DNA from: Breznakia blatticola
GTDB taxonomy: Bacteria > Bacillota_I > Bacilli_A > Erysipelotrichales > Erysipelotrichaceae
Assembly (NCBI RefSeq): GCF_004365815.1
Contig: NZ_SODD01000012.1
Location: 27,446 to 59,445, forward strand
Reading direction: 5' to 3'
DNA: 32,000 bases
Of the stretch, positions 10,511 through 29,457 are shown in pieces; position 1 is the stretch's first letter; each line of letters starts with the position of its first letter. Both the position numbers and the translations under genes were made by a program. The notes under the pieces were generated by a model. It had not been told where the DNA came from and did not search any database. It worked only from the letters and a program-made list of their open reading frames with translations.

Positions 10511-10786
10511 ATGGAAAGTTTGAAAAAGATATTAGCTGCCATTTTAACAGTTTTAATTATTATTTGGTTAATTCCAGTTATTGCATGGTTAGTTGTACTT
10601 CTACTAATCGTGGGGATTTGTTTATATGCGTATTACCGATATAAACTTCGTAAAATGATGAATGATGAAGAATATCCGTATTATCGTTCACGTGATGATT
10701 ACGAACAAGAAAGAGATCAAGCAAATGGATCACGTATTGATCCAGATGTCATTGATGTTGAGTATACAGAGAGGGAAGAAGAATAA
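10511..10786 (+). CDS. Small membrane protein with an acidic cytoplasmic tail (unknown)
   Basis: 91 aa. Residues ~8-40 form a long hydrophobic stretch (one or two TM segments), followed by a Tyr/Asp/Glu-rich tail. AGGAG Shine-Dalgarno; the stop overlaps the next start (TAATG). Confidence 0.6.
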   Translation: MESLKKILAAILTVLIIIWLIPVIAWLVVLLLIVGICLYAYYRYKLRKMMNDEEYPYYRSRDDYEQERDQANGSRIDPDVIDVEYTEREEE

Positions 10787-16014: not shown

Positions 16015-16060
16015 GACTCATCTACTGATTCGTAAGAATCAGAGGTGGGTCTTTTTCTTT
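16015..16060 (+). terminator. Strong Rho-independent terminator after nagA
   Basis: Composite hairpin with an outer stem GACTCATCT / AGGTGGGTC (two G-U pairs, one bulged A) and an inner perfect stem CTGATTC-GTAA-GAATCAG, followed by TTTTTCTTT. Confidence 0.75.
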
Positions 16061-16115: not shown

Positions 16116-16144
16116 TTGATAATTATAATTACATCATATATAAT
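16116..16144 (+). promoter_or_regulatory. Sigma-A-type promoter of the giant surface-protein gene
   Basis: TTGATA (16116-16121), exactly 17 nt of spacer, then TATAAT (16139-16144). This would give a ~90-nt 5' UTR before ATG 16243. The region is very AT-rich, so alternative -10 hexamers exist (16124-16129, 16162-16167). Confidence 0.5.
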
Positions 16145-16154
16145 GTCGCTTGTG

Positions 16155-16175
16155 CAATTTGTATAATACAAATTG
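16155..16175. promoter_or_regulatory. Perfect 9-3-9 palindrome just downstream of the predicted start site
   Basis: CAATTTGTA-TAA-TACAAATTG. The arms are perfectly complementary and the centre contains another TATAAT (16162-16167). Confidence 0.5.
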
Positions 16176-16242
16176 TCACGTACAAGATAAAGGGATCTAG
16201 ATGTATATGTGTGTGCAATATACAGAAAGAGGAGTAAATGAA

Positions 16243-19200
16243 ATGCAGAAAAAGAAAAACCTAAAGATGAGGTTCTTTAGTTATGCATTGATGGTCACCA
16301 TTATTGGATCCCTAAGTATCAATGCATTCTTTTCGTATGATTTGCAAAACCATCAAATTCTCATGAAACAAGAAGAACAAGATGAAAAGCTAGATCATGA
16401 AGAAAAGCAAATTGAAGAACAAACAAATGATTCAATTGAGAACGTTAAAGTTGGAACGGATAATCTGATCCAACCACGAGCAGTGACTTCTGTAGTCATC
16501 GATGTTGATGAACAACCAGAAGGTGCTGATTATCTAATAAATGAAACGGCACAACCATTACGTGCATCAGGAAGCATTGAAGGAAAGCCTACAGCAACTA
16601 AGAATATTTCATATTCTTGGCAAGTAAATGATAGTCTAGACAATACCGGATGGTCGTATATTGATGGTGCGAAAGGAAAAACGTTTACACCACCTACTAA
16701 TGTTGTGGGAACAAAATACTATCGTCTCTTTATGGCATACTCTAGTCCGATTGAAGGAATGTTTGCTGGGGTGTCTAGGGCGGTACCGATTGTTGTACAT
16801 GACAAGGCAAAACAACCATCTATTACAACACAACCGGTAGGAGCAACATATCGACAAGGCGACACTGTAACACCTTTAAAAGTGACAGCTAGAAAATCAG
16901 ATGAAGGAACGCTAACGTATCAGTGGTATTCAACTTCAGTAAAAGGAAATGTTGGTGGAGTATTGATTCAAGGAGCAACAAAATCAACCTATACACCACC
17001 TTTAGATAATATAGAAACAAGATACTATTATGTTGTTGTGACTAATACTGGATATAAAAATACAAAGGCCAAAAGTACAAGTAATCCAGCGGCAATTGAA
17101 GTGAAAAAAGCGATTGTGCCTCCAAAGATTACAGAACAGCCAAGAGATTGGATTCTACCACAATCACCGACCACAAAAATTCGATTAAATGTAAAAGTGG
17201 AAGCACCAGAAGGTGCAAAACTAACGTATCAGTGGTATAAAAATGCGGATAAACCAGAGTATGGAGGAACCTTAGCAAGTGTAGTTTCTAGCAATTCACT
17301 AAGTGTTTCTACAGATAAACTTGGGAAAGCGTACTATTATGTAGAAGTTACAAGTAATGATGGAGGCGATATATCTATCGTTAGAAGTAATATTGTTTAT
17401 GTGGATATACGAGATATCGAAGAACTAACAATTGCTACACATCCAGACTCGGCAGAGTACCAACAAAACGAAGATGCAAATGCACTTAAAGTTACAACAA
17501 ACAAAATAGAATATGGAACAGTTACATATCAATGGTATAAAAATACAACAGACGCTACAGGAGGTTCTACGCAAATTCCAGGAGCCACAAAATCAACATA
17601 TACGCCACCGACTTCAGAATTAGGAAGAACTTTCTATTTTGTTCGTGTTCGAAACACGTGGGGTTCGAATGTTAAAGAAAAATGGAGTAGGATCGCAAAT
17701 GTAAACGTATTGCCAAATGCTCAAGAACCAATTATTTCAAAACAACCAATAACCATTGAATGGATAGAAGATGGAACGCCAGCAGAGTTTTCTGTAGAGG
17801 CGACATCACCTGATAAAGGGACTTTAAGTTATCAATGGTATCTATATGATAGTAAAACTGGTGGTACTGGAAGATTAATTAATGGAGCTACCAAATCAAC
17901 ATTTACACCAAAAGATGTAACAGTTGGCTCGAAATACTATGGAGTTACAGTTACAAATACGTTGAATAACTCAAGTAAGTCAGTTGAAAGTGAACGTGCT
18001 GTAGCACGCATTGTTAGTCGAGCAGAGATTCCTACAATTACAGAGCAACCAGCAGATGTAATTTATGGACAAGGGGCAAAAGCAGAACCATTAAAAGTTG
18101 TTGCTGAAGTAAGTGATGGTGGAACCCTGAAATATCAATGGTTTTCACGAAGTGGGGCATATAATACAATAAAGAATCCAATTTCAGGGCAAACGATGGA
18201 CCAGTTTATTCCAGATACGAGTACGATTGGATATAAGTACTATCATGTAGATGTTTACAATTACTCTGGACAATCTTATAAAACAAGTAGAAGTAGAGTT
18301 GTTAAAGTACAAGTAGTTCCTGCAGCAAATGCACCAACCATTAATGAACAACCAAATGATGCAACCTATGGAAAACATGCAGAAGCAGATAAGTTATCAG
18401 TAACTGCGACTTCGGATACAGGAGTATTAAGTTATCAATGGTATGAAAATAGTACAAAGTCAAATACCGGTGGAAATGAAATTTTCGGTGCGACAAATAA
18501 AGACTATAGACCAAGTACTGGAAGTCTAGGGAAAAAGTATTACTATGTAAAAGTAACAAATACAGTACATGGAACTTCGAAATCAACAGTAAGTAATGCT
18601 GCAGAAATTGAGATAGTAAGTGCAGCAGAAACTCCAAAGATTACAAAACATCCAGATTCAGCAATTTACGGAAAAGGTGCTAAAGCAGACTTTCTTTCAG
18701 TAGAAGCGAGTGTAAATGATACTGGAACCTTAAGTTGTCAATGGTATCAATCTACATCAGAAAATGGTAATAATGCATTAGAAATAAATGATGCGACAGC
18801 CTCTACATATAAGCCAAGAACATTCACAACAGGTAAACTCTACTACTTTGTTGAAGTTACAAACACAAAGCATAAAACTACACGTGTATCGAGAAGTAAA
18901 ATTGCAAGTATTGAAGTTGTTGAGGCAGCTAAAAAACCAATCATTGAAAACCAACCTGAAGGTGATATTTATGAAATCAATGAGCAAGCAAATACTCTAC
19001 ATGTGGATGCTAGAAAAGATGGTGATGGAACACTTAGTTACCAATGGTATGAATTTGAAACATTCAACAGTGATACAAAACATCCAATTGAAGGGGAAAC
19101 AACGGATAGTTATACACCAAGTACAACTACATTAGGTGAGAAAGCCTACTGTGTCGTTATTACAAATACACTTCATGGTACCACTGCATCTGTTGAAAGT

Positions 19201-22104
19201 GAACGAGTTGAAATCAAAGTATTTGAACCAACTGGAATTCCTACAATTACTGAGAATCCAAAATCAGCAATTTATGGACAAAAGGCAAAAGCAAAAACAC
19301 TGCGTGTAAGTGCAATTGCGAAAGCAGGTGGAACGCTTAGTTATCAATGGTATCAAAACGATCAACCAACAATAGATGGAGCAACTGCAATTGATCAAGA
19401 AACAAGTACAACGTATACACCAAGTACCGAAACACTTGGACATACATACTATTTTGCAATTGTGACAAACACGGAAAATGATATTTCTAAAGAAGCAACG
19501 AGTGAGATTGCTGATATCGAAGTTATTGCACCAGCAACAAAACCAACAATCAACGTCAAACCTCAAAATGCAATTTATGGTAAAGGGGCAACTGCAAAGC
19601 CATTAGAAGTTGATGCAAGTGCAAGCGACGGTGGAATCCTAACTTACAAATGGTTTAAAATCAGTAGTAAAAAAACAGGTGTAGGAAAATCCATAGATGA
19701 TGCGACTAATAGCGTGTATACGCCAAGTACGGATGTTGTTGAAACTGCATATTACTATGTAGAGGTAACCAATACACTACATGGTACTAGTGCAGTAAGT
19801 GAAAGTGATAGGATACGAATAGATATCGTAAATGCAGCAGCAAAACCTGATATCACTGGACAACCAAAAGATAGTATTTATGGAAAAGGTGCCGCAGCTA
19901 ACAAACTTGTTGTGGAAGCAAGTTCGAGCGATACTGGGACACTAAGCTATCAATGGTATCAAAGTGCAAACAAAGATGGTTCAAATGCCAAAGCAATTAA
20001 GGATGCAACAAATGATACCTACGCACCAAGCACAAACACACTTGGGAAAAACTATTACTATGTCGAAGTAACCAATACATTGTATGGAACTACTGCTAAA
20101 AATCAAAGTAATATCGCAGAAATTGAGGTAATCGCAGCAGCGGATACCTTGACGATTACAAAATCACCAGATGATAATACGTATGGACAAGGTGCAAAAG
20201 CTGATCCGTTGAGTGTTGATGTAGATAAAAATGATAACGGAACGCTAAGCTATCAATGGTTTGCTAGTGATGACCGCTATAAAACAAATGTAGAACTAGT
20301 CCAAGGAGCAACAAAGCCAACTTATACACCAAGTACAGATGAAGTTGGATTGACATACTACTATGTCGAAGTGACGAATACGTTATATGGAACAACTTCG
20401 TCAGTAACTAGTGATGTTGCTAAAATTGAAGTTGTACCAGCTGCACAGGCAGTAAGTATCGAAAAAGATCCTGAATCTGCAATCTATGGACAAGGGGCAC
20501 ATGCTACAGATCTTGTAGTGGAAGTACGTCCAAACGATACAGGAAGTATCACATATCAATGGTTTAAAAGTAATAAAAAAGATCTATCAGATGCAACATC
20601 TATTGAAGATGCAACGACAGATAGTTACATGCCAAGTACAAAAGATATTGGCACTTCCTACTACTATGTAGAAATCACCAATACACTATATGGAACAACA
20701 GCAAAAGTAGTAAGTGAAACTGCTAAAATTGAAGTTGTTGAAAAAGCAGTAAAGCCAACAATCGATACACAACCAGAAAGTGCATACTATTTAACGGGAA
20801 GCGATGCAACTGCTTTAGAAGTAGAAGGAAGCGCAAGCAATGGGGTATTGAGTTATCAGTGGTATGAAAGTGAAAATGATGAAGTCGCATATGGGCAAGC
20901 GATACAAGATGCAACAGAAGTAACATATACACCAGATACAAGTGTAGAAGATACACGTTATTACTATGTGGTTGTTACAAATACTGAACATGGAACAACT
21001 GCTAGTCAAACAAGTGATATCGCAACGATAACTGTTGTAGATGAACCGGAAACACCAACGATTAATGAGCAACTACAAGATGCTACATACATCATAAACG
21101 ATGAACCAGAAATGCTATTTGTAGATGCTGAAGTATCTGATGATGGAGTATTAAGTTATCAATGGTATGTATCGAAAACAAAAGAATTAGAAGATGCAAC
21201 ATTGATTGAAAATGAAACGGAAGAAGCATATCTTCCAAGTACTGATGAAAAGGGTATTTTCTACTATTGGGTACAAATTACAAATACTCGCAAAGGGGAG
21301 ACAAGACATATTACAAGTGAGGCTGCAATGGTACAAGTTATTCAACCAGCGGCAACACCAATCATTCACAAACATCCTGAACATGGTACATATATACAAG
21401 ATGAAACACCACTTGCTTTACATGTACAAGCAACGGTGGAAGATGATGGACAGTTGACATATCAGTGGTATGAGCAAACAAGTGAAGAACATGAAGATAT
21501 CTTGATTGATGATGCTACAGCACATACCTTCACACCTGATACAACAGCCATTGGTTCTACATCATACTATGTAGTTATAACCAATACACTTGATGATCAA
21601 ACTAGCCAAGTGACAAGTGAAGTTGCTACTATACAAGTAAAGAAACAACCAGAACCAACAATTGATCCAGAAGAAGGAGAACTTCCTCCTATTGATGAAA
21701 TAGATTTGACAGATTCTTTGGATAATGAAAATACTGTGAACAAAACGGATGGTTTAGAACCATCAACTCCTGCAAATGATGGTACAGATGCAAATGTATC
21801 TGCAACACAAGATACACATATAAACATTGCAAATAACCAACATGCAGACAAAAAGGGTGTAACTAATACCAACGATGAAGTTAAAAACACAAAAAACGAT
21901 CAACATCACAAACAAAAAAGTGCGAATACAAATAAAGATATATTGACTACATCTGACAATCATAACGGATGGAGTTTGACATCCTATATCTTAATGGCGG
22001 CAGGTTTCCTATCATTATTTGGACTGTTCTTCTTACTTATTTTCCTGTGGAAGCGTAAAAAAGATGACGAAGAAGACAGCGAACAAACAGCCAATGAACG
22101 TTAG
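16243..22104 (+). CDS. Large secreted, membrane-anchored protein with 17 tandem Ig-like repeat modules (putative adhesin or fibril)
   Basis: Start at ATG 16243 (AAAGAGGAG 8 nt upstream). Signal-peptide-like N-terminus MQKKKNLKMRFFSYALMVTIIGSLSINAFF. 17 modules of ~101 aa, a polar low-complexity C-terminal stalk, one TM helix (SYILMAAGFLSLFGLFFLLIFLW), then KRKKDDEEDSEQTANER. Confidence 0.85.
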   Translation: MQKKKNLKMRFFSYALMVTIIGSLSINAFFSYDLQNHQILMKQEEQDEKLDHEEKQIEEQTNDSIENVKVGTDNLIQPRAVTSVVIDVDEQPEGADYLINETAQPLRASGSIEGKPTATKNISYSWQVNDSLDNTGWSYIDGAKGKTFTPPTNVVGTKYYRLFMAYSSPIEGMFAGVSRAVPIVVHDKAKQPSITTQPVGATYRQGDTVTPLKVTARKSDEGTLTYQWYSTSVKGNVGGVLIQGATKSTYTPPLDNIETRYYYVVVTNTGYKNTKAKSTSNPAAIEVKKAIVPPKITEQPRDWILPQSPTTKIRLNVKVEAPEGAKLTYQWYKNADKPEYGGTLASVVSSNSLSVSTDKLGKAYYYVEVTSNDGGDISIVRSNIVYVDIRDIEELTIATHPDSAEYQQNEDANALKVTTNKIEYGTVTYQWYKNTTDATGGSTQIPGATKSTYTPPTSELGRTFYFVRVRNTWGSNVKEKWSRIANVNVLPNAQEPIISKQPITIEWIEDGTPAEFSVEATSPDKGTLSYQWYLYDSKTGGTGRLINGATKSTFTPKDVTVGSKYYGVTVTNTLNNSSKSVESERAVARIVSRAEIPTITEQPADVIYGQGAKAEPLKVVAEVSDGGTLKYQWFSRSGAYNTIKNPISGQTMDQFIPDTSTIGYKYYHVDVYNYSGQSYKTSRSRVVKVQVVPAANAPTINEQPNDATYGKHAEADKLSVTATSDTGVLSYQWYENSTKSNTGGNEIFGATNKDYRPSTGSLGKKYYYVKVTNTVHGTSKSTVSNAAEIEIVSAAETPKITKHPDSAIYGKGAKADFLSVEASVNDTGTLSCQWYQSTSENGNNALEINDATASTYKPRTFTTGKLYYFVEVTNTKHKTTRVSRSKIASIEVVEAAKKPIIENQPEGDIYEINEQANTLHVDARKDGDGTLSYQWYEFETFNSDTKHPIEGETTDSYTPSTTTLGEKAYCVVITNTLHGTTASVESERVEIKVFEPTGIPTITENPKSAIYGQKAKAKTLRVSAIAKAGGTLSYQWYQNDQPTIDGATAIDQETSTTYTPSTETLGHTYYFAIVTNTENDISKEATSEIADIEVIAPATKPTINVKPQNAIYGKGATAKPLEVDASASDGGILTYKWFKISSKKTGVGKSIDDATNSVYTPSTDVVETAYYYVEVTNTLHGTSAVSESDRIRIDIVNAAAKPDITGQPKDSIYGKGAAANKLVVEASSSDTGTLSYQWYQSANKDGSNAKAIKDATNDTYAPSTNTLGKNYYYVEVTNTLYGTTAKNQSNIAEIEVIAAADTLTITKSPDDNTYGQGAKADPLSVDVDKNDNGTLSYQWFASDDRYKTNVELVQGATKPTYTPSTDEVGLTYYYVEVTNTLYGTTSSVTSDVAKIEVVPAAQAVSIEKDPESAIYGQGAHATDLVVEVRPNDTGSITYQWFKSNKKDLSDATSIEDATTDSYMPSTKDIGTSYYYVEITNTLYGTTAKVVSETAKIEVVEKAVKPTIDTQPESAYYLTGSDATALEVEGSASNGVLSYQWYESENDEVAYGQAIQDATEVTYTPDTSVEDTRYYYVVVTNTEHGTTASQTSDIATITVVDEPETPTINEQLQDATYIINDEPEMLFVDAEVSDDGVLSYQWYVSKTKELEDATLIENETEEAYLPSTDEKGIFYYWVQITNTRKGETRHITSEAAMVQVIQPAATPIIHKHPEHGTYIQDETPLALHVQATVEDDGQLTYQWYEQTSEEHEDILIDDATAHTFTPDTTAIGSTSYYVVITNTLDDQTSQVTSEVATIQVKKQPEPTIDPEEGELPPIDEIDLTDSLDNENTVNKTDGLEPSTPANDGTDANVSATQDTHINIANNQHADKKGVTNTNDEVKNTKNDQHHKQKSANTNKDILTTSDNHNGWSLTSYILMAAGFLSLFGLFFLLIFLWKRKKDDEEDSEQTANER
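16483..21645 (+). repeat. 17 in-frame tandem coding repeats, period 300-309 bp (mostly 303 bp)
   Basis: The conserved Tyr-x-Trp codon triplet (TAT/TAC/TGT-CAA/CAG/AAA/TCT-TGG) starts at 16612, 16918, 17227, 17527, 17830, 18133, 18433, 18736, 19039, 19342, 19645, 19948, 20251, 20554, 20854, 21157 and 21460. The copies are diverged at DNA level, not identical. Confidence 0.9.
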
Positions 22105-22116
22105 ATAAGGGTATAT

Positions 22117-22151
22117 AAAAAGCTTGACTCGAAGAAGAGCCAAGCTTTTTT
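22117..22151. terminator. Bidirectional terminator between the surface-protein gene and the convergent minus-strand operon
   Basis: AAAAAGCTTGACTC (22117-22130) / GAGCCAAGCTTTTT (22137-22150) is a 14-bp stem with one A-C mismatch and a GAAGAA loop. An A-run lies on one side and a T-run on the other. Confidence 0.8.
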
Positions 22152-22156
22152 CTAAC

Positions 22157-22756
22157 TTATTTATTTGCGTTTTTTTCCATTAAATTTTTAGAGATATCCG
22201 CATATTTTTTTGCATTTGCTTTATCGCCTTTGTTTTCGTATTGCACAGATAATAAGTATGCAGTTACACCTTTTGCGGTACTATCCTGCATTTCAAATTG
22301 TTCCAACATTTCATCAATGTAGTTTGATTTCTTCATCATGAAGATATCATAAATACGTTGTGCTTCCGCTTCCATTGCCGGATGATCCAGTGTTTTTACT
22401 AAATCTAAAGCTTCTTTTGCTTTCCCTGGTTTTTCAACTCCTACATAGTAGTTGAAAGCCTTCATATATACGTCTTCTTTTTGTTTCTTCGACATTTTGT
22501 AGCTAAGAAGTTTTTGCAATCCTGCTTCAATTTTCTTTTCATCACCTTGTAGTACGTATGCATTTAAACGTAAGTAATCACGGTTAAATTGAGGGTATAG
22601 GTATTTCATCAATGGTGTATCAATTTTTGCTTCAAAGGTTTTAAAGTCACCTGTTTGAAGGTAGGTTAATAATTTTTTAAATTGCGTTCTTTTTAATACT
22701 TGAATAACAATTGTAGATAGTGCAACTACAACAAATGCGATAATAACATAATTCAT
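22157..22756 (-). CDS. N-terminally membrane-anchored all-helical (TPR-like?) protein of unknown function
   Basis: 199 aa. One N-terminal TM segment (YVIIAFVVVALSTIVIQVL), then Lys/Glu/Ala/Tyr-rich helical repeats. AAAGGAGAA Shine-Dalgarno 7 nt upstream. I recognised no family. Confidence 0.6.
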   Translation of the reverse strand: MNYVIIAFVVVALSTIVIQVLKRTQFKKLLTYLQTGDFKTFEAKIDTPLMKYLYPQFNRDYLRLNAYVLQGDEKKIEAGLQKLLSYKMSKKQKEDVYMKAFNYYVGVEKPGKAKEALDLVKTLDHPAMEAEAQRIYDIFMMKKSNYIDEMLEQFEMQDSTAKGVTAYLLSVQYENKGDKANAKKYADISKNLMEKNANK

Positions 22757-22773
22757 GTGTTTTCTCCTTTATC

Positions 22774-23292
22774 CTATTCTTTAGTCAATGCAATTACATA
22801 ACGTATTGCCATATAGCCACTTAATAAGGCAACTGCAAATGATGCAAGTGCAATGAGTAAATTAGTTTCGATGTAATTTTCAATGATTACATTTGCTACA
22901 AGTAGTACAGATAGTGCTACATATAGACAAATACGTAAAATTAAACCACCTTTTTCTATTTTTTTAGCTTCATTTGTAGATGCACGTGCTGCACTTGGAT
23001 TGAAACTTTTAATTTGCGTAAATCTTGCAAGTAATTTACGGTAATGCCACTCCATGTAAACAAAACTTAAAGCAGCAATTAATAGTGACATCCAGTGATT
23101 CAAATTGAATAGTAATTCACAGAAGATAAATGCAACAAGTGCAATTGCATATCGATAACTCAATACTTGATATCGTTGCGTTGCATCACTTGGAATTACG
23201 TATCCTGTTTGTTTACGTTTGTTGTAGTAGATTGCACGATTGTGCTTATCATAATATATGTTTTTCCCGTTTAAAACGATTTCTTTTGCCAT
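22774..23292 (-). CDS. Polytopic membrane protein of unknown function
   Basis: 172 aa from ATG 23292 (MAKEIVLNG). The GTG at 23304 sits inside the GAGGTG Shine-Dalgarno. A soluble basic N-terminal ~45 aa is followed by about four hydrophobic segments. 17 nt upstream of the next gene, so probably co-transcribed. Confidence 0.6.
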   Translation of the reverse strand: MAKEIVLNGKNIYYDKHNRAIYYNKRKQTGYVIPSDATQRYQVLSYRYAIALVAFIFCELLFNLNHWMSLLIAALSFVYMEWHYRKLLARFTQIKSFNPSAARASTNEAKKIEKGGLILRICLYVALSVLLVANVIIENYIETNLLIALASFAVALLSGYMAIRYVIALTKE

Positions 23293-23444: not shown

Positions 23445-24620
23445 ATGATTTATAACGTATCAATAGATGAATTAAAAAAAGAAAATGCGTTTTGGACAGC
23501 AAGTGAAATTCACCAACAACCTAAAACGTGGAAAAAAACGTTAGCGCAAGTAGAAAGTGAAAAAGATGCGATCCAAGCATTTATCAATAAGGTAATCACA
23601 CAAGATGACTTTGATGTTATCTTAACTGGTGCTGGAACAAGTGAGTTTGTTGGGAATGCAGTATTCTCATACTTAAACACAAAATTAAACAATAAGGCAC
23701 GTTCTTATGCAACAACTGATATTGTTGCTTGCCCAGAGAACTACTTATCACGTACGAAACCAACTTTACTTATTTCGTATGGACGTTCAGGAAACTCTCC
23801 TGAATCTGTTGCAGCAGTTGAAGTTGCAAACGTGGTTTGTGAAAACATTTACCACTTATTTATTACATGTAACCACGAAGGTGCATTATCAGAATTTGCC
23901 AAAGGTAAAGACAACTGTTATGCAATTAACTTAACACCTGAAACACATGACCAAAGTTTTGCGATGACTTCAAGTTTCTCAAATATGTATTTGGCAACTG
24001 TTTTAAGTTTTAATTTAGATAACCTAGATGAAATGAAAAACCGTGTGGATGCAATTGCTGCAGGTGTAGATGAATTAGTAAACGAACAATACACATTCCC
24101 TGAAATGTTAGTCAGTGGATTTGATTTCAAACGTATTGTATATTTAGGAAGTAATACAAATAAAGGTGTTGCCCAAGAATCAGCATTAAAAATGCTAGAA
24201 TTAACAGCTGGTGAAGTTGTGACTATGTATGATACACCACTTGGTTTCCGTCATGGACCAAAATCGATTATTGACCCAGAAACACTTACAGTTGTATACT
24301 TAAGTGACGATGCTTATACACGTCAATATGAGATTGATATTCTTAAAGAAATGAGTCCACAACGTAAAGGTAATAAAATTCTTGCGATTTCATCAAGTGA
24401 AGATGAACAAGCAGAAGAACTTGTAGATTACTTCTACAGTTTTGACAACAAAGAGAAAATGGAAAATGTTTTCTTAGGACTTGAATACATCGTTATGGCT
24501 CAATTAATTGCGTACTACAAGAGTCTTTCACTAGAAAAAACACCAGACAATCCATGTCCAACAGGTGAAGTGAATCGTGTAGTAAAAGGGGTAACAATCT
24601 ACCCGTACATAAAGAAATAA
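23445..24620 (+). CDS. agaS: SIS-domain galactosamine/tagatose-6-phosphate deaminase-isomerase (AgaS family)
   Basis: 391 aa from ATG 23445. Two SIS-type modules (ILTGAGTSEFVG..GRSGNSPES and YLGSNTNKGVAQESALK). The length and N-terminal FWTASEIHQQP match AgaS-like proteins. The IIA gene follows 14 nt downstream. Confidence 0.85.
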   Translation: MIYNVSIDELKKENAFWTASEIHQQPKTWKKTLAQVESEKDAIQAFINKVITQDDFDVILTGAGTSEFVGNAVFSYLNTKLNNKARSYATTDIVACPENYLSRTKPTLLISYGRSGNSPESVAAVEVANVVCENIYHLFITCNHEGALSEFAKGKDNCYAINLTPETHDQSFAMTSSFSNMYLATVLSFNLDNLDEMKNRVDAIAAGVDELVNEQYTFPEMLVSGFDFKRIVYLGSNTNKGVAQESALKMLELTAGEVVTMYDTPLGFRHGPKSIIDPETLTVVYLSDDAYTRQYEIDILKEMSPQRKGNKILAISSSEDEQAEELVDYFYSFDNKEKMENVFLGLEYIVMAQLIAYYKSLSLEKTPDNPCPTGEVNRVVKGVTIYPYIKK

Positions 24621-25075: not shown

Positions 25076-25098
25076 ACGGACTTTGATGGTCCGTTTTT
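25076..25098 (+). terminator. Terminator after agaS-EIIA
   Basis: 7-bp stem ACGGACT (25076-25082) / GGTCCGT (25088-25094), with the closing pair a G-U, and a 5-nt loop. The last stem T begins a T5 run (25094-25098). Confidence 0.65.
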
Positions 25099-25151
25099 AT
25101 TTGTTTAAACTAAAATGCATGATAGACTTTTTGTGTAAGGGAGTAAATATT

Positions 25152-25754
25152 ATGAAAAAAGCATTATTATATATTCATGGAAAAGGTGGTTCACATGAAG
25201 AGGTATCACTATATAATAATTTGTGTAAAGAGTATGCATTAATTGGTGTTGATTATGAAGTGGATGTGCCTTGGATTGTCGAAAAAAAGATACAAAAAAG
25301 CTATGATGAAATACATAAAGATTATGATAGTATTTCTATTCTAGCAAACAGTATTGGTGCTTATTTTGCGATGCATTCTTTGCAAGATAGAGAAATTAAT
25401 ATGGCATATTTTATTTCACCAATCGTGGATATGGAACAATTAATCATGGATATGATGACTTGGGCGAATGTCAGTGAAAAACAATTAGAGAAACAAAAAG
25501 AAACTGAGACAAGTTTTGATGAAACCTTGTCTTGGGAATATCTTTGCTATGTTAGAAAACATCCCATAATATGGAATGTAGAAACAGAAATTCTCTATGC
25601 AACAAACGATCATCTTACAAAAAAGGAAACGATTGATACCTTTGTGTGCAAGCATAATGCAAATGTATATGTTGCAAAAGATCAAGAACACTGGTTTCAT
25701 ACAAAAGAGCAAATGGCCATTGTATATGAGTGGCTAACAAGAGTAATAAAGTAA
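25152..25754 (+). CDS. Small alpha/beta-fold hydrolase (esterase-like)
   Basis: 200 aa from ATG 25152 (AAGGGAG 8 nt upstream). The upstream extension from 25083 overlaps the terminator. Candidate triad: nucleophile elbow LANSIGA, ATNDHL (Asp), QEHWFH (His). IHGKGGS is an oxyanion-loop-like motif. Confidence 0.65.
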   Translation: MKKALLYIHGKGGSHEEVSLYNNLCKEYALIGVDYEVDVPWIVEKKIQKSYDEIHKDYDSISILANSIGAYFAMHSLQDREINMAYFISPIVDMEQLIMDMMTWANVSEKQLEKQKETETSFDETLSWEYLCYVRKHPIIWNVETEILYATNDHLTKKETIDTFVCKHNANVYVAKDQEHWFHTKEQMAIVYEWLTRVIK

Positions 25755-25781
25755 AAAAAATAGCATGGTTGCTATTTTTTT
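25753..25781. terminator. Bidirectional terminator between the hydrolase gene and the convergent AraC-family gene
   Basis: A8-TAGCA-TGGT-TGCTA-T7. The stem is extended by the complementary A/T runs and overlaps both stop codons. Confidence 0.65.
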
Positions 25782-26952
25782 AGTTATATATGGTTTTAGC
25801 ATAATCACTTGGTGTGATGCCAAATTGTTGTTTGAACTTTCTTGAGAAGTAATGAATCGATGCAAAACCAAGAATGTTTGAAATTTCTGAAATCGTGTAT
25901 TTTGATTCTTTAATCAATTGTTTAGATCGGTTCAGTTTCAAATCAGAAATGTACTGTTTTGGAGCCATATTTAAATTGGTTTTAAATAATTGTTGTAAGC
26001 TGCTACGTGAAATATTAAATTCATTACATAGATTCTCAATGGTGATCACCGAGTAGATGTTGTCGTTGATATGAATGAGAATTTCATTTAGTAATTCATT
26101 CTCGAACTTCTGTTGCATTGGACTTGTTTTGACTGGTAAGTCATCAATGTAATCAAAATACATCAAACGAATTAGAATTTGTTCAAGATATGAGACAAGT
26201 AATTCTCTTTGATAGGGTTCATCGCCTTCACTAGTTTTAACAAAAAGGTTAATCGTGTCAAGAATTTCACGGTTAGCTTTAAAGACGCGTTGGTTAAGAC
26301 TGTCTACATGTTCATTATCACACTTCATATCAAACATAACTGTTAAGTAGGAGCACGTTTGGTCAGCTCTTGTATATTGGTTATGGAATTGATTTGGCAT
26401 ATAGAACATCAAATCGTATTGTCCAAGTTCAAAGTCTTGATCTTCTACTCGTGTTTGCAGTTCTCCATTATCAATGAAGGTGAGTTCCCAGTGGTTTGTA
26501 GACTCTCCTGCAAATGAATAACTCGTATTACGTACTTGATAGTAACAAGCAAGTACTTCTTCAACAAAGATCCGTGGTCGTATCGGCATATATTCGATTG
26601 GTGCATCGAGCTTCATTCGATTTCTTGTATAATTACCAGTTGTTGAAATTTCAAGTTTGGCAGAACTGGTGATGCTAATAAAGTTAAAACGCACACCTGG
26701 TTCCAAGCGAACGACACGGTGAATAACGAATTTTTCGATTTCGCTATCATCACGACTTTGTACCAAAAGTAGAACAATTCCTTCATTTACTCGCAAGTAT
26801 GTATCACTTTCACTGTAATAAAGAAAGTCGACACTTTTGTTTGAGATTTTCTTTATTTTTTTCCCTGGAGAGAGAATGGAACTACCTTGTGAGAAGTCCT
26901 GGAAAATCTCTCCATATTTTTGAAAGATATAACTTGTTGTTTTTTTAAACAT
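25780..26952 (-). CDS. AraC/XylS-family transcriptional regulator with a long N-terminal sensor region
   Basis: 390 aa. The C-terminal ~100 aa form the double HTH (ITIENLCNEFNISRSSLQQLFK ... ISEISNILGFASIHYFSRKFKQQFGITPSDY). AAGGGAGGA Shine-Dalgarno. Divergent from the PTS IIB-IIC-IID operon. Confidence 0.88.
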   Translation of the reverse strand: MFKKTTSYIFQKYGEIFQDFSQGSSILSPGKKIKKISNKSVDFLYYSESDTYLRVNEGIVLLLVQSRDDSEIEKFVIHRVVRLEPGVRFNFISITSSAKLEISTTGNYTRNRMKLDAPIEYMPIRPRIFVEEVLACYYQVRNTSYSFAGESTNHWELTFIDNGELQTRVEDQDFELGQYDLMFYMPNQFHNQYTRADQTCSYLTVMFDMKCDNEHVDSLNQRVFKANREILDTINLFVKTSEGDEPYQRELLVSYLEQILIRLMYFDYIDDLPVKTSPMQQKFENELLNEILIHINDNIYSVITIENLCNEFNISRSSLQQLFKTNLNMAPKQYISDLKLNRSKQLIKESKYTISEISNILGFASIHYFSRKFKQQFGITPSDYAKTIYN

Positions 26953-27034
26953 AGAGCATAGTCCTCCCTTGTCTTTTTAGTGTATCATACAAATTTGGGA
27001 AGGTAAAAATGAATTGGTAAAAAATTACAAGAAA

Positions 27035-27073
27035 ATACTATCACATAAACATTTTGCTTTGAAAACGCTTATA
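27035..27073 (-). promoter_or_regulatory. Predicted promoter of the AraC-family gene, overlapped by a cre-like site
   Basis: On the minus strand, TTCAAA (fwd 27058-27063), 17 nt of spacer, then the extended -10 TGATAGTAT (fwd 27035-27043). TGAAAACGCTTATA (27060-27073) fits the CcpA cre consensus WTGNAARCGNWWWCAW with one mismatch and overlaps the -35. Confidence 0.45.
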
Positions 27074-27734: not shown

Positions 27735-28559
27735 ATGAACGTAAATATTATACAAGCTTTATTGGTTTTCGTTGTTACATTCATAATGGCGATCGACCAA
27801 TTCAGTTTCTTAGAATCACTTTACCAACCAGTAGTTCTTTGTCCTATTATTGGAGCAATTTTAGGAAACTTTGAACTAGGAGTTGTAGTAGGTGGGGCTT
27901 ACCAATTAATGCAAATTGGTAGTATGCCTGTAGGTGGAGCACAACCACCAAACGCAATTATCGGTGGAATCATGGCGACTGTATTCGCGATTTCACTAGG
28001 ACTTGAGCCAAGTGCTGAAGGAGTTGGAGCTGCTCTTGGATTAGCAGTACCATTCGCAGTATTCGGACAATACGCTGTAACAGTTACATTTACTTTAATG
28101 TCAGGTATGATGGCTAAAGCTGACGAAGCTGCTGCTAAAGCTGACACTAAAGGAATTGCACACATTAACTACCTTTCAATGGCTATTCTTGGAACATTAT
28201 TCGGAGTAATCGCTGTTGCTGGTTTATACTCAGGACAAGCATTAGGAGAAGCACTTCGTGAATTCTCACTTAACTTCTCATGGGTAATGGCTGGATTAGA
28301 CGCTGCCGGAGGAATGATGAAATTCGTTGGATTCGCAGTTCTTATGAAAGTTATGATGTCTAATGACATGTGGGGATACTTCCTTGCAGGATTCGCAGTT
28401 ACTGTAATCATGAGTGCTGTACCTTCAATTTCAGGATCTGCATTGTTATTAGTATCATTCATTGGATTGGCAATTGCACTTGCTGACTACCAATTGAACT
28501 CAAAAATTAAAGCTTCAGCAGGATCTGCTGGGAATGGAGGAATGAGCGATGGCATCTAA
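27735..28559 (+). CDS. PTS mannose/sorbose/GalNAc-family EIIC component
   Basis: 274 aa, polytopic and Gly/Ala-rich, with typical IIC-Man features (IGSMPVGGAQPPN). AAAGGAGAA Shine-Dalgarno. Overlaps the IID start by 11 nt. Confidence 0.88.
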   Translation: MNVNIIQALLVFVVTFIMAIDQFSFLESLYQPVVLCPIIGAILGNFELGVVVGGAYQLMQIGSMPVGGAQPPNAIIGGIMATVFAISLGLEPSAEGVGAALGLAVPFAVFGQYAVTVTFTLMSGMMAKADEAAAKADTKGIAHINYLSMAILGTLFGVIAVAGLYSGQALGEALREFSLNFSWVMAGLDAAGGMMKFVGFAVLMKVMMSNDMWGYFLAGFAVTVIMSAVPSISGSALLLVSFIGLAIALADYQLNSKIKASAGSAGNGGMSDGI

Positions 28560-29457
28560 TGTTACTCAAACACACTATAATGATTTAACTCCAGCTAACA
28601 AAGTTAGTAAAAAAGCATTAAACAAAATGATCTGGAGATCATTATTCTTACAAGCATCTTTCAACTACGAAAGAATGCAAGCAGGTGGATGGCTATACGG
28701 AATGATTCCTGGACTTGTAGAAGTTCACACGAACAAAGACGACTTAGCTTTATCTATGCAACACAACTTAGACTTCATTAACACTCACCCATTCTTAGTA
28801 ACATTCGTTATGGGAATCGTGCTTTCAATGGAGCAACAAAAAACTGATATTCAAACAATTCGTTCAGTACGTATTGCTGCAGCTGGACCACTAGGTGGTA
28901 TCGGGGATGCATTATTCTGGTATACTCTAGTTCCTATTACTGCAGGTATTTGTGGTAACTTAGCTCTTGATGGATCTATCTTAGGGGCAGTATTATTCTT
29001 ATTAATCTTTAACGCAGTGCAATTTGCAATTCGTATTTGGTTAATGAACTGGTCTTACAACTTAGGAACAAAAGCTGTTTCTACAATTACTAGTAATGCA
29101 AAAGAATTCACTCGTGCTGCTTCAATTTTAGGGATCTTCGTAGTAGGTTCATTAATTGCTGCATACGGTGGAACAGAAGTACGTATCATTATTTCTGACC
29201 CAGCAATCAACGTACAATCTTTATTAAATGGTATCTTACCAAAAATCTTACCATTAGCTATTACAATCGGTCTTTACTTCTTAATTAAAAAAGGTTGGAC
29301 TCCAACAAAATGTATCATGCTTCTTATCGTAGTAGGTATTGTTGGAACAATGTTTGGAGTACTTGCTGGTAACTCACAAGCTCAAGACGAAAACGGTAAC
29401 CCTCTTCCAGGTGGATATACACCACTTGTTGAATGGTACGAATACCCAACTGAGTAA
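28549..29457 (+). CDS. PTS mannose/sorbose/GalNAc-family EIID component
   Basis: 302 aa. The N-terminal block WRSLFLQASFNYERMQAGGW and HPFL.. are diagnostic of IID-Man proteins. GGAGG Shine-Dalgarno at 28536-28540. Confidence 0.9.
   Translation: MASNVTQTHYNDLTPANKVSKKALNKMIWRSLFLQASFNYERMQAGGWLYGMIPGLVEVHTNKDDLALSMQHNLDFINTHPFLVTFVMGIVLSMEQQKTDIQTIRSVRIAAAGPLGGIGDALFWYTLVPITAGICGNLALDGSILGAVLFLLIFNAVQFAIRIWLMNWSYNLGTKAVSTITSNAKEFTRAASILGIFVVGSLIAAYGGTEVRIIISDPAINVQSLLNGILPKILPLAITIGLYFLIKKGWTPTKCIMLLIVVGIVGTMFGVLAGNSQAQDENGNPLPGGYTPLVEWYEYPTE

What the first reader, a model, noticed from the sequence alone, without database searches (positions are those of the whole stretch)
16243..22104. 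1953-aa secreted protein of 17 tandem ~101-aa Ig-like modules, nested inside a sugar-catabolism locus
Seen in sequence:
- One uninterrupted ORF has a signal-peptide-like N-terminus and 17 consecutive modules.
- The conserved Tyr-x-Trp codons recur every 300-309 nt, mostly 303 nt.
- The module consensus I read is P-x-I-x-x-Q-P ... A-x-x-L-x-V-x-A ... D-x-G-T-L-S-Y-Q-W-Y ... A-T-x-x-T-Y-T-P-S-T ... G-x-x-Y-Y-Y-V-E-V-T-N-T-L-x-G-T ... A-x-I-E-V.
- Copies are well diverged at DNA level. Central modules 12-14 are the most alike and modules 1-6 the most degenerate.

Inference:
- The spacing of hydrophobic L.V.A, an invariant Trp, and G..Y.Y.V.N mirrors the strand B / C / F core of I-set or V-set immunoglobulin folds, with Tyr where Ig has the second Cys. 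Each module is therefore probably a cysteine-free beta-sandwich, and the protein a ~17-bead surface fibril.
- The gene splits a GalNAc/GalN-type catabolic locus (deacetylase upstream, agaS/IIA downstream). GalNAc is the core sugar of mucin O-glycans, so a host-glycan or mucus adhesin is an attractive hypothesis. It is unproven.
Basis: partly seen in the sequence, partly recalled or inferred. Interest (0 to 1): 0.7.

Follow-up and report, generated by a model that had tools for sequence, protein, structure and literature searches.

The report
Giant 17-module Ig-like surface fibril
This gene from the insect-gut bacterium Breznakia blatticola encodes a real, fast-evolving, membrane-anchored rod of 17 immunoglobulin-like beads; it is an ordinary kind of bacterial surface fibril, and its position inside a GalNAc sugar locus looks like a lineage-specific insertion, with nothing yet showing a functional link.

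Summary
ORF 16243-22104 (+) encodes a 1953-aa protein: signal peptide, 17 tandem 100-103-aa modules, a polar linker and a C-terminal transmembrane anchor.

- **Fold:** AlphaFold models (pLDDT 97 and 94) are all-beta. Their best structural matches are tandem I-set Ig domains (titin Z1Z2, Robo, LAR, MuSK) and phage Ig decoration proteins. Pfam Ig_3 and SCAB-Ig pass threshold on the whole protein.
- **Identity:** the protein is EDD63_11243, "hypothetical", of Breznakia blatticola.
- **Module family:** it is very large, about 25,000 cluster representatives, and includes Bacteroidota gliding-associated giants, Paenibacillus SLH proteins and a phage tail protein.
- **Transcription:** the gene is an insulated unit, with terminator hairpins on both sides, its own conserved promoter and an operator-like palindrome.
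- **Synteny:** the position next to the aga genes is conserved only in the B. blatticola/MTC7 clade. One related gatZ-agaA locus lacks the gene, and four other relatives have no aga or PTS neighbours.
- **Evolution:** it evolves fast. dN/dS is 0.31-0.44 against 0.01-0.05 for neighbours, module number is 12, 17 or 22, and it lies in a deep-allele island.

Verdict: a new member of a known kind, a fibrillar Ig-repeat surface protein. The mucin/GalNAc adhesin idea is untested and weakly supported.

The parts
16015..16060 (+). Intrinsic-terminator-like hairpin and U-tract after the nagA/agaA-type deacetylase gene. It insulates the Ig gene from the gatZ-agaA transcript.
   Evidence: RNA fold gives -22.8 kcal/mol, z = -5.4, with 0 of 200 shuffles folding as well. 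The element is conserved in L001, L003 and L005.
16116..16144 (+). Sigma-70-type promoter of the Ig gene: TTGATA, 17-nt spacer, TATAAT.
   Evidence: 11 of 12 positions match the consensus. Both hexamers are invariant in four lineages, including MTC7.
16156..16174 (.). Operator-like perfect palindrome AATTTGTAT-A-ATACAAATT, just downstream of the -10 hexamer.
   Evidence: It is conserved in window, L001, L003 and L005. Its core TGTATNATACA occurs 3 times in the window against 0.19 expected, and 0 of 100 shuffles reach 3. A second conserved copy lies at 26981, upstream of the AraC-family gene.
16229..16234 (+). Ribosome-binding site GAGGAG, 8 nt before the ATG at 16243.
   Evidence: Read directly from the sequence. 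Purine-rich and partly conserved in the four-way alignment.
16243..22104 (+). Coding sequence of the 1953-aa Ig-repeat protein (B. blatticola EDD63_11243).
   Evidence: 100% identity to P0001. dN/dS is 0.31-0.44, which indicates a functional gene under purifying selection.
16243..16329 (+). Signal peptide, aa 1-29: MQKKKNLKMR followed by a hydrophobic core, with a possible cleavage site after SINA.
   Evidence: Sequence and hydropathy. The pattern is conserved in orthologs. No dedicated signal-peptide predictor was available, so this is an inference.
16330..16497 (+). Acidic, Glu/Gln-rich low-complexity N-terminal segment, aa 30-85.
   Evidence: Composition and pI 4.4. No Pfam match.
16498..16803 (+). 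Module 1, the distal "tip". This is a distinct Ig subtype with a PLRxSGxxEGKP insert and a hydrophobic F-G segment ending in VHD in place of YYYVEVTNT.
   Evidence: The subtype is kept at the same position in all four orthologs. The AF2 model has pLDDT 93.8 and shows an Ig-like fold with one short helix.
16804..21654 (+). Modules 2-17: sixteen tandem 100-103-aa I-set-like Ig domains joined without linkers.
   Evidence: register and identities; pLDDT 97.3; fold matches; Pfam.
21655..21966 (+). Asn/Thr/Asp/Lys-rich low-complexity linker, aa 1805-1908. Presumed to span the cell wall.
   Evidence: Composition N 15%, T 13%, D 13% and GRAVY -1.37. With m2, one of the two most variable parts between near-identical alleles, dN 0.28.
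21967..22050 (+). C-terminal transmembrane helix, aa 1909-1936.
   Evidence: Apart from the signal peptide (aa 11-12, KD 1.63), it is the only stretch with Kyte-Doolittle hydropathy above 1.6. Conserved in orthologs. No LPXTG motif precedes it.
22051..22104 (+). Short cytoplasmic tail KRKKDDEEDSEQTANER and the stop codon.
   Evidence: The positive-inside rule implies an N-out, C-in topology; this is an inference.
22117..22150 (.). Bidirectional terminator hairpin (A-tract, stem, U-tract) between the convergent Ig gene and the 199-aa membrane-protein gene.
   Evidence: RNA fold gives -17.3 kcal/mol, z = -4.6, with 0 of 200 shuffles folding as well.
22157..22756 (-). 199-aa protein with an N-terminal TM helix and a helical, TPR-like domain ("mem199"). 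It lies inside the same variable island but is an older resident of the gatZ-agaA neighbourhood.
   Evidence: No family match. The family is narrow, 25 proteins, Breznakia-like. It is found next to gatZ/agaA with no Ig gene within 10 kb in L021; L019/L020 contigs end beside the deacetylase, and that is also the side of the 8-kb block of other genes in L021.
22774..23292 (-). 172-aa multi-pass membrane protein ("mem176"). It marks the last gene of the variable island.
   Evidence: No family match. It is 68% identical to the L003 counterpart, against 97-100% for most backbone proteins (IIB1/IIB2 94-96%), with dS 1.9.

Best explanation
The gene encodes a Sec-exported, type-I membrane-anchored surface fibril of Breznakia blatticola, an Erysipelotrichaceae bacterium isolated from an insect gut.

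**Proposed arrangement**
- After signal-peptide cleavage, the C-terminal TM helix and basic tail hold the protein in the membrane.
- A ~100-aa polar linker crosses the wall.
- Seventeen cysteine-free I-set-like Ig domains, joined head to tail without linkers, project as a rod.
- The rod would be roughly 70 nm long, taking 17 domains at ~4 nm each. The per-domain length is from my own knowledge of titin-type Ig domains.
- The distal end carries a distinct, positionally conserved tip module (m1) followed by a conserved basic module (m2).

**Most likely function:** a fibrillar adhesin or spacer that makes multivalent, low-affinity contacts with polymers or cells in the gut lumen.

**Evolution and transcription**
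- Surface exposure would explain its rapid amino-acid evolution, its module-number polymorphism (12, 17 or 22) and its location in a deep-allele recombination island.
- It is transcribed on its own, from a conserved promoter guarded by a palindromic operator.

**Shown:** gene anatomy, fold, homology, synteny and evolutionary rates.
**Inferred:** export, topology, rod length and the adhesive function.
For: **Anatomy**
- 17 modules in register.
- Signal-like N-terminus, a single C-terminal TM helix plus KRKK, and no LPXTG.

**Fold**
- AF2 pLDDT is 97.3 for m12-13 and 93.8 for m1-2; both are all-beta.
- Foldseek PDB top hits are tandem I-set Ig domains, probability 1.0, E ~1e-7. For the m1-2 model, extended cadherin tandems give the highest TM-scores, 0.5-0.56, which fits a linear arrangement; for m12-13 the TM-scores are 0.28-0.45 and the best hit is RPTPsigma Ig1-3.
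- BFVD top hits are phage Ig, tail and Hoc-like proteins, E down to 3e-11.

**Family**
- Pfam SCAB-Ig and Ig_3 are above threshold on the whole protein.
- The module profile finds 25,159 cluster representatives at E <= 1e-3, many of them giants with up to 61 modules.
- Named relatives are surface proteins: gliding-motility-associated/CHU_C proteins, SLH-domain proteins and InlB B-repeat proteins.

**Own transcription unit:**

**Fast evolution**
- dN/dS is 0.31 against 0.01-0.05 for neighbours at comparable dS, window vs L001.
- The protein is 44% identical to its L003 counterpart while most flanking proteins are 97-100% identical (PTS IIB1/IIB2 94-96%).
- Island boundaries lie at ~16.02 and ~23.28 kb.
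- Module counts are 12, 17 and 22.
- The MTC7 ortholog carries a recent duplication of a 3-module unit, with modules 98-99% identical.
Against: - No experiment shows export, surface location or binding.
- No separate adhesive domain of a recognised family is present. The only candidate tip is an Ig variant, so a purely structural role (spacer or shield) is equally compatible.
- Substitutions between close alleles are only slightly enriched in loops, 15% against 11% in strands. No clear binding hot spot emerges.
- No signal-peptide or topology predictor was available. Those calls rest on sequence inspection and hydropathy.
Confidence: 0.6

Rival explanations
1. The fibril is a host-glycan (GalNAc-bearing mucin or peritrophic-matrix glycoprotein) adhesin that works with the adjacent GalNAc/GalN PTS catabolic genes. 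It would hold the cell on the glycan whose sugars the locus imports, and it would be co-regulated with that locus.
For: - The position between agaA and agaS is conserved in five assemblies from at least three lineages whose backbone dS reaches ~1-2.
- The palindrome core TGTATNATACA occurs at the Ig promoter and upstream of the locus' AraC-family regulator gene. It occurs 3 times in the window against 0.19 expected, and two of the copies are conserved.
- The closest solved sequence match is T4 Hoc, E 1.1e-3. Hoc's Ig-like domains bind fucosylated mucin glycans (PMC9271167).
Against: - The gene is flanked by terminators and has its own promoter, so it is not co-transcribed with the aga genes.
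- No cre-like site lies at its promoter.
- A related gatZ-agaA-mem199 locus lacks the Ig gene within 10 kb (L021). L019 and L020 also show none, but their contigs end next to the deacetylase and cannot exclude it.
- Four of four non-Breznakia relatives examined have no aga or PTS neighbours.
- The locus is a hot spot for insertions in general: L001 carries an extra 4.7-kb sugar cassette.
- The third motif copy, inside agaS, is not conserved.
- The similarity to Hoc is marginal.
Confidence: 0.15
2. The fibril is mainly a target of, or a shield against, phages (or bacteriocins or other antagonists). It would be a long, variable surface coat or decoy whose sequence and length change under an arms race, with no specific host ligand.
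For: - It lies in a deep-allele island with dS >= 1 in a backbone with dS 0.12-0.28, and it has raised dN/dS and length polymorphism.
- A second such island in the same window covers man-PTS IIC/IID, which are only 55% and 61% identical to their L003 counterparts. From my own knowledge, IIC/IID are classic phage and class II bacteriocin receptors.
- A phage tail protein of 1970 aa is built from 16 modules of the same type.
Against: - No phage of Breznakia is known to me, and none was examined.
- dN/dS stays well below 1 in every module, at most 0.51.
- Variation is spread through the modules, with no concentration at an exposed face.
Confidence: 0.15
3. The fibril mediates homophilic Ig-Ig contacts between bacterial cells, causing aggregation or biofilm formation, as eukaryotic I-set cell-adhesion molecules do.
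For: The best structural matches are cell-adhesion and receptor Ig tandems (Robo, LAR, neurofascin/contactin, sidekick) and cadherin tandems.
Against: - Fold similarity alone does not indicate a binding mode.
- The strong divergence between alleles of near-identical strains would break homophilic recognition between them.
Confidence: 0.07

Closest known systems
Bacterial fibrillar (stalk-type) surface proteins built from tandem Ig-like domains: the Ig_3 / Ig_7 / SCAB-Ig-type module arrays of Bacteroidota gliding-associated giants and of Paenibacillus/Alicyclobacillus SLH or InlB-repeat proteins
   Same: - The same module family by sequence: full-protein bit scores of roughly 200-720 (E 1e-56 to 5e-210) and 25-39% identity.
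- The module profile matches 25,159 cluster representatives.
- The architecture is also long and tandem.
   Different: - The anchor differs. Here it is a C-terminal TM helix, with no CHU_C/T9SS sorting domain and no SLH domain.
- Here there are no accompanying PKD, SprB, FN3 or catalytic domains.
- None of these relatives is characterised as far as the searches showed.
Phage T4 Hoc and other phage Ig-like decoration or tail proteins
   Same: - Hoc is the best sequence match among solved structures: 5vf3_Z, E 1.1e-3, with the Y-x-W and F-strand motifs aligned.
- BFVD fold hits reach E 3e-11.
- Phage contig L012 encodes a 1970-aa tail-module protein with 16 such modules.
- Hoc Ig-like domains bind mucin glycans (PMC9271167; PMC10385173).
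   Different: - Hoc has 3 Ig domains plus a capsid-binding domain. This protein has 17 modules plus a membrane anchor and is chromosomal.
- The sequence similarity is marginal.
- No glycan binding has been shown for this protein.
Eukaryotic I-set Ig tandems (titin Z1Z2, Robo, LAR/RPTPsigma, MuSK)
   Same: - The best structural matches.
- The same core motif layout, with a C-strand Trp and an F-strand Y-x-[C/Y].
- Identity between neighbouring domains is ~30-40%, as in titin-like chains (PMC9704523).
   Different: - Sequence identity is only 10-17%.
- There is no B-F disulfide.
- The protein is a bacterial surface protein.
Periscope proteins (SasG, Aap, Rib, Sgo0707 class)
   Same: - A monomeric rod of tandem repeat domains on a Gram-positive-type surface.
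- Repeat number differs between strains: 12, 17 or 22.
- The MTC7 ortholog has a 98-99% identical 3-module sub-array.
   Different: - The defining feature of the class is highly identical tandem repeats (PMC9704523). This is absent here: 37% aa and 51% nt identity, and TRF finds no array.
- There is no LPXTG motif.

Membership tests
Immunoglobulin-like domain, I-set/Ig_3 type (Pfam Ig clan) | Sequence match to curated Ig profiles above the gathering threshold | tested here: met
   On the whole protein, SCAB-Ig scores 113.2 bits (cutoff 27.6) and Ig_3 66.7 bits (cutoff 30). Caveat: in the per-module Pfam scan at E <= 0.01, only 5/17 modules match Ig_7, 5/17 SCAB-Ig and 3/17 Ig_3; the one module shown in full, m12, scores 19.9 bits against a cutoff of 27.6. 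The modules are therefore divergent members.
Immunoglobulin-like domain, I-set/Ig_3 type (Pfam Ig clan) | Two-sheet beta-sandwich with I-set strand topology | tested here: met
   AF2 pLDDT is 97.3 and 93.8, with 7-9 strands per module. Foldseek top hits are I-set tandems with probability 1.0. These are predicted models; no solved structure exists.
Immunoglobulin-like domain, I-set/Ig_3 type (Pfam Ig clan) | Conserved B-F disulfide | tested here: not met
   Only 2 Cys in 1953 aa. Tyr occupies the F-strand Cys position in the alignment to Hoc. From my own knowledge, the disulfide is commonly absent in bacterial and phage Ig-like domains and in titin, so this does not exclude membership of the fold class.
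Fibrillar adhesin | Stalk of tandemly repeated folded domains | tested here: met
   17 tandem modules. The predicted inter-domain geometry is extended.
Fibrillar adhesin | Cell-surface anchor | tested here: inconclusive
   A C-terminal TM helix followed by KRKK, and an N-terminal signal-like sequence, are present. The topology is inferred. No LPXTG, SLH, LysM or choline-binding domains were found.
Fibrillar adhesin | A distinct adhesive (ligand-binding) domain, usually at the distal end | tested here: inconclusive
   No non-Ig domain was found. The distal module m1 is a distinct subtype conserved in position, but it has no known binding function.
Periscope proteins | Highly identical tandem repeats at DNA and protein level | tested here: not met
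   Mean identity is 37% aa and 51% nt, maximum 58% aa. TRF finds no array. The definition is taken from PMC9704523.
Periscope proteins | Repeat-number variation between related strains | tested here: met
   12, 17, 17 and 22 modules in P0004, the window protein, P0002 and P0003. P0003 carries a recent 3-module duplication.
Sortase-anchored LPXTG surface proteins | LPXTG-type motif directly before the C-terminal hydrophobic segment and basic tail | tested here: not met
   No conserved LPXTG-like motif in the last 140 aa of any of the four orthologs.
aga (GalNAc/GalN) operon or regulon member | Co-transcription with the aga genes | tested here: not met
   Terminator hairpins lie on both sides and the gene has its own promoter. 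This is a prediction only; no transcript data were available.
aga (GalNAc/GalN) operon or regulon member | Shared regulator binding site | tested here: inconclusive
   TGTATNATACA occurs at the Ig promoter and upstream of the AraC-family gene: 3 sites against 0.19 expected, of which 2 are conserved. The regulator is unknown.
aga (GalNAc/GalN) operon or regulon member | Gene neighbourhood conserved beyond close relatives | tested here: not met
   The arrangement is conserved only in the B. blatticola/MTC7 clade. No Ig gene within 10 kb in L021; L019/L020 contigs end beside the deacetylase, and the ~8 kb beyond it in L021 holds other genes. It is also absent from four other Ig-giant loci.
ZirU family (NCBIfam NF040485) | Score above the curated cutoff | tested here: not met
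   24.8 bits against a cutoff of 100.
T4 Hoc family | C-terminal capsid-binding domain after the Ig-like domains | tested here: not met
   The C-terminus is a low-complexity linker plus a TM helix. Only the Ig part aligns, weakly, at E 1.1e-3.

The most novel reading that the evidence does not exclude
The Ig fibril may be controlled by the aga-locus regulator through the shared TGTATNATACA palindrome. It would then act as the capture arm of a GalNAc-foraging system. Weak, multivalent binding of its Ig modules, like that of phage Hoc, would tether the cell to GalNAc-rich glycoproteins in the insect gut, such as peritrophic-matrix mucins, and the adjacent PTS would import the sugars. That would make it a cellular counterpart of phage "adherence to mucus", and one of very few bacterial I-set-type arrays with an assigned ligand.
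Probability: 0.12. Interest if true: 0.6.

Novelty: new member of a known kind. Interest (0 to 1): 0.3.

Why it matters
- **An uncharacterised but very large domain family.** Tens of thousands of bacterial and phage proteins carry this I-set-like module, and almost none has a known ligand. Single modules score below every Pfam gathering threshold. A tractable, cultured Gram-positive-type host with a simple architecture (Ig modules plus a TM anchor only) would be a convenient model for what such arrays do.
- **A marker of selection on the cell surface.** Two deep-allele islands, one covering the Ig fibril with two membrane proteins and one covering man-PTS IIC/IID, sit in an otherwise near-identical backbone. 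This shows where selection acts on the cell surface of an insect-gut symbiont.
- **What stays ordinary.** The existence of a long Ig-repeat surface protein is not surprising in itself. Its link to GalNAc metabolism remains a positional coincidence until regulation or binding is shown.

Tried and rejected
1. **Genome scan for orthologs.** The genome-contig scan with the whole protein returned only distant Bacteroidota and Verrucomicrobiota-like loci (L006-L011).
3. **Tip-module search.** A homolog search with tip module m1 alone returned nothing, not even the protein itself. This is uninformative.
4. **A possible second Ig/mem199 pairing.** The 198-aa minus-strand ORF downstream of the Ig giant in L014 looked like mem199 by size and position, but it is not homologous (BLASTP E 2.6).
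5. **A three-gene "Ig cassette".** I considered that the Ig gene, mem199 and mem176 form one functional cassette. I rejected this as a general rule:
   - mem199 homologs sit beside gatZ/agaA with no Ig gene in view in other genomes;
   - they also occur elsewhere entirely.
6. **Regulatory and RNA elements.**
   - No cre (CcpA) site at the Ig promoter.
   - No Rfam family anywhere in the window.
   - No DNA-level tandem array.
7. **Foreign origin.** There is no compositional sign of it: GC is 0.355-0.378 in the gene, like the flanks.
8. **Binding-face hot spot.** Stacking the 17 orthologous module pairs gave only a weak loop/strand contrast in substitutions.
9. **Pseudogene or non-coding artefact.** Rejected: the ORF is intact in five assemblies and dN/dS is below 1.
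10. **Antisense ORFs.** The 85-100-aa ORFs inside the gene on the minus strand were not pursued. They are what one expects in a long AT-rich coding sequence.


Full report
**1. The observation**

The window holds one ORF, 16201-22104 (+). The ATG at 16243 is preceded by GAGGAG 8 nt upstream. It gives a 1953-aa protein identical to NCBI "hypothetical protein EDD63_11243 [Breznakia blatticola]", which UniRef names "Ig-like domain-containing protein" (P0001).

A [YC]-x-W motif recurs 17 times at 100-103-aa intervals. W41, Y75 and S92 are invariant.

The modules are old copies. Mean pairwise identity is 37% at protein level and 51% at DNA level, and the maximum is 58% (m8/m12). Modules m1 and m3 are the most divergent. 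Tandem Repeats Finder sees no array.

**2. Anatomy of the protein**

| Residues | Feature |
|---|---|
| 1-29 | Signal-like: basic stretch, then hydrophobic core |
| 30-85 | Acidic Glu/Gln-rich segment |
| 86-1804 | 17 modules joined directly (..IEVV-AAxKP-I..QP..) |
| 1805-1908 | Asn/Thr/Asp/Lys-rich low-complexity linker |
| 1909-1936 | The only strongly hydrophobic stretch other than the signal peptide |
| 1937-1953 | KRKKDDEE... tail |

- No LPXTG-like motif is conserved before the TM helix in any ortholog. The anchor is therefore a membrane helix; no sortase signal is present.
- The protein has two Cys in total.
- Module 1 is a separate subtype. It has a PLRxSGxxEGKP insert, Y-S-W, and a hydrophobic F-G segment ending in VHD.
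- All four orthologs keep this subtype at the first position, and in all four module 2 is basic, pI 8.9-9.9.

**3. Fold**

- AF2 on di-module alignments gave pLDDT 97.3 for m12-13 and 93.8 for m1-2. Both models are all-beta.
- Foldseek against the PDB puts tandem I-set Ig domains first: titin Z1Z2, LAR/RPTPsigma Ig1-2, Robo Ig1-2, MuSK and UNC-5. The phage N4 capsid decoration protein also appears.
- For the m1-2 model, extended cadherin tandems give the highest TM-scores, 0.5-0.56, which fits a linear arrangement. For m12-13 the TM-scores are lower, 0.28-0.45.
- Against BFVD the best matches are phage Ig-domain, tail and Hoc-like proteins, E down to 3e-11.
- Pfam SCAB-Ig (113 bits) and Ig_3 (66.7 bits) pass threshold on the whole protein.
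- Single modules fall below every gathering threshold; they match Ig_7, SCAB-Ig and Ig_3 at E 3e-4 to 1e-2.
- A module profile against PDB sequences finds only T4 Hoc (E 1.1e-3) and Arabidopsis SCAB1 Ig (E 1.9e-3). In the Hoc alignment, the invariant Tyr sits on Hoc's F-strand Cys.

**4. How common the module is**

The module profile matches 25,159 cluster representatives at E <= 1e-3, 10,348 at <= 1e-10 and 2,116 at <= 1e-30. Some are giants with up to 61 modules.

Named relatives are surface proteins:
- Bacteroidota "gliding motility-associated" proteins with CHU_C or PKD domains;
- Paenibacillus and Solibacillus SLH-domain proteins;
- an Alicyclobacillus InlB B-repeat protein.

One relative, P0010 (1970 aa, 16 modules), lies in a phage tail module right after the tape-measure gene. 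The domain kind is therefore well known and widespread, although I found no characterised member. No paper in the library mentions "SCAB-Ig".

**5. Gene neighbourhood and transcription**

Gene order in the window:
- rapZ, yvcK, whiA, a 91-aa ORF, GNAT, MatE
- gatZ/kbaZ, then a nagA/agaA-type deacetylase
- **the Ig gene**
- two small membrane-protein genes on the minus strand (199 aa and 172 aa; no family)
- agaS, EIIA-man, a ~200-aa ORF
- an AraC-family regulator (minus strand)
- man-type IIB, IIC, IID, IIB
- gap

The "GalNAc/GalN locus" reading is therefore reasonable.

The Ig gene is insulated:
- a strong hairpin and U-tract follow agaA (-22.8 kcal/mol, z = -5.4);
- a TTGATA-17-TATAAT promoter, 11 of 12 matches, is invariant in four lineages;
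- a bidirectional terminator lies between the Ig gene and the convergent 199-aa gene (z = -4.6).

Just downstream of the -10 hexamer lies a perfect 9+1+9 palindrome, AATTTGTAT-A-ATACAAATT, conserved in all four lineages.
- Its core TGTATNATACA occurs three times in the window against 0.19 expected.
- One copy lies 25-40 nt upstream of the AraC-family gene and is conserved there.
- The copy inside agaS is not conserved.

This is the only hint of shared regulation. No cre-like site and no Rfam element is present.

**6. Is the aga linkage recurrent?**

Positional orthologs sit between the deacetylase gene and the two membrane-protein genes plus agaS in these assemblies (L005's contig ends at the Ig gene, so only its upstream side is seen):

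| Locus | Source | Ig protein |
|---|---|---|
| L001/L002 | Logan metagenome | P0002, 85% identical, 17 modules |
| L003/L004 | unclassified Breznakia | P0004, 44% identical, 12 modules |
| L005 | Erysipelotrichaceae bacterium MTC7 | P0003, 37% identical, 22 modules |
| L015 | an MTC7-like metagenome contig | 2432 aa |

All belong to one clade.

- In L021, a homolog of the 199-aa protein lies next to gatZ and the deacetylase, and no Ig giant occurs within the 10-kb flank.
- In Breznakia sp. PF5-3 and a sister assembly (L019, L020) the same pairing is seen without an Ig gene. Those contigs end beside the deacetylase, so they cannot exclude one.
- Four other Ig giants of the same module family (phage L012, L013, L014 and Christensenellaceae L022) have no aga or PTS neighbours.

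The Ig gene therefore looks like a clade-specific insertion into an older gatZ-agaA-mem199 neighbourhood. In L001 the same neighbourhood has also taken up a 4.7-kb RpiR/PfkB/PTS/aldolase cassette. Conservation within the clade and the shared palindrome keep a functional link possible.

**7. Evolution**

Window against L003:
- Most backbone proteins are 97-100% identical (PTS IIB1 and IIB2 94-96%).
- The Ig protein is 44% identical, the 199-aa protein 84% and the 172-aa protein 68%.
- DNA identity falls from ~95% at about 16,020 and returns to 94-95% at about 23,284. This is exactly the block that interrupts the aga genes.
- dS in the block is >= 1, against 0.12-0.28 in the backbone. That indicates replacement by, or long persistence of, deeply diverged alleles; faster amino-acid change alone would not raise dS.
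- Caveat: the Ig alignment between alleles with different module numbers may inflate dS. The two small genes do not have that problem.

Window against L001, where all 17 modules are 1:1 orthologous (66-95% identical):
- The Ig gene's dS (0.27) is like that of its neighbours.
- Its dN/dS is 0.31, against 0.01-0.05 for the neighbours.
- Module 2 and the wall linker are the most variable parts.
- Differences are spread over the module, affecting 15% of loop positions and 11% of strand positions.

Module number changes by duplication of multi-module units. In P0003, modules 13/16 are 99% identical, 14/17 are 98%, and 12/15/18 are 88-93%.

This is the usual signature of an exposed surface protein. 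By definition it does not make this a Periscope protein, because that class requires highly identical repeats (PMC9704523).

**8. Mechanism**

Best-supported reading (confidence 0.6):
- The protein is a Sec-exported, type-I membrane-anchored rod of roughly 70 nm. This takes 17 domains at ~4 nm each, from my own knowledge of titin-type Ig domains.
- It projects through the wall, with a distinct tip module, and acts as a fibrillar adhesin or spacer through multivalent weak contacts.
- It is under diversifying or relaxed selection because it is exposed.

Shown here: anatomy, predicted fold, family, insulation signals, synteny and rates. Inferred: export, topology, length and adhesion.

Rival readings:
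- a GalNAc/mucin-glycan adhesin coupled to the aga locus (0.15);
- a phage or bacteriocin target or shield (0.15);
- homophilic aggregation (0.07).

The second rival is suggested by the deep-allele islands, including man-PTS IIC/IID at 55% and 61% identity, and by the phage tail relative.

The Hoc precedent for glycan binding by Ig-like domains is real (PMC9271167; PMC10385173). The Fraser 2006 and Barr 2013 papers appear in the reference list of PMC13370021. The similarity of this protein to Hoc, however, is marginal.

**9. Verdict**

The protein is a new, uncharacterised member of a very widespread kind, a tandem Ig-like bacterial surface fibril. The glycan-adhesin hypothesis is not supported by the neighbourhood tests available, but it is not excluded. 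Interest is modest, 0.3. The best follow-ups are expression on GalNAc, regulator binding to the palindrome, surface localisation, and ligand screens with the tip modules.

Noticed in passing
window 27735-29457 (+): Man-type PTS IIC and IID are only 55% and 61% identical to their counterparts in the near-identical Breznakia genome L003. The flanking IIB genes are 94-96% identical and GAPDH is 99% identical. For IIC/IID, dS is ~0.9-1.05 and dN/dS 0.32-0.35. This is a second deep-allele island. From my own knowledge, IIC/IID are classic receptors for phages and class II bacteriocins.
   Followed up: partly
window 25780-26952 (-): Against L003, the AraC-family regulator gene has dS 1.6 but dN 0.017. 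The alleles are very old, yet the protein is almost unchanged.
   Followed up: no
window 16156-16174, 24226-24236 and 26981-26991: The palindrome core TGTATNATACA occurs three times against 0.19 expected. The copies at the Ig promoter and upstream of the AraC-family gene are conserved in related genomes. The copy inside agaS is not. The binding factor is unknown.
   Followed up: partly
L001 3981-8430 (between gatZ and agaA): A close relative carries an extra ~4.7-kb cassette that the window lacks: an RpiR/SIS regulator, a PfkB kinase, a fructose-type PTS IIABC and a class II aldolase. The window's aga locus itself has no kinase or catalytic aldolase gene.
   Followed up: no
window 25083-25754 (+): A ~200-aa ORF after EIIA-man shows only faint alpha/beta-hydrolase hints. 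It is present in the window and in L001 but absent at this position in L003.
   Followed up: no
L012 8001-13913: A 1970-aa protein with 16 modules of the same Ig type lies in a phage tail module, downstream of the tape-measure gene and two small ORFs. The contig is 53 kb.
   Followed up: partly
L005 / P0003 modules 10-18: The MTC7 ortholog contains a recent expansion of a 3-module unit: m13/m16 are 99% identical, m14/m17 98%, and m12/15/18 88-93%. This shows how module number changes.
   Followed up: yes
window 22157-23292 (-); L019, L020, L021: Two small membrane proteins have no family assignment. The family of the 199-aa protein is restricted to Breznakia-like bacteria (25 proteins). Its homologs sit next to gatZ and the deacetylase; in L021 no Ig gene lies within 10 kb, and L019/L020 show none but their contigs end beside the deacetylase.
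   Followed up: partly
window 10511-10786 (+): A 91-aa ORF directly after whiA is conserved in all related loci and has no Pfam match.
   Followed up: no
window 27060-27073: A cre-like site, TGAAAACGCTTATA (1 mismatch), lies in the conserved AraC-PTS intergenic region. No such site occurs at the Ig promoter. The count in the window does not exceed chance.
   Followed up: no
window 16804-17112 and orthologs: Module 2 is strongly basic in all four orthologs, pI 8.9-9.9. It is also the most divergent module between the two 17-module alleles: 66% identity, against 78-95% for the other modules.
   Followed up: partly
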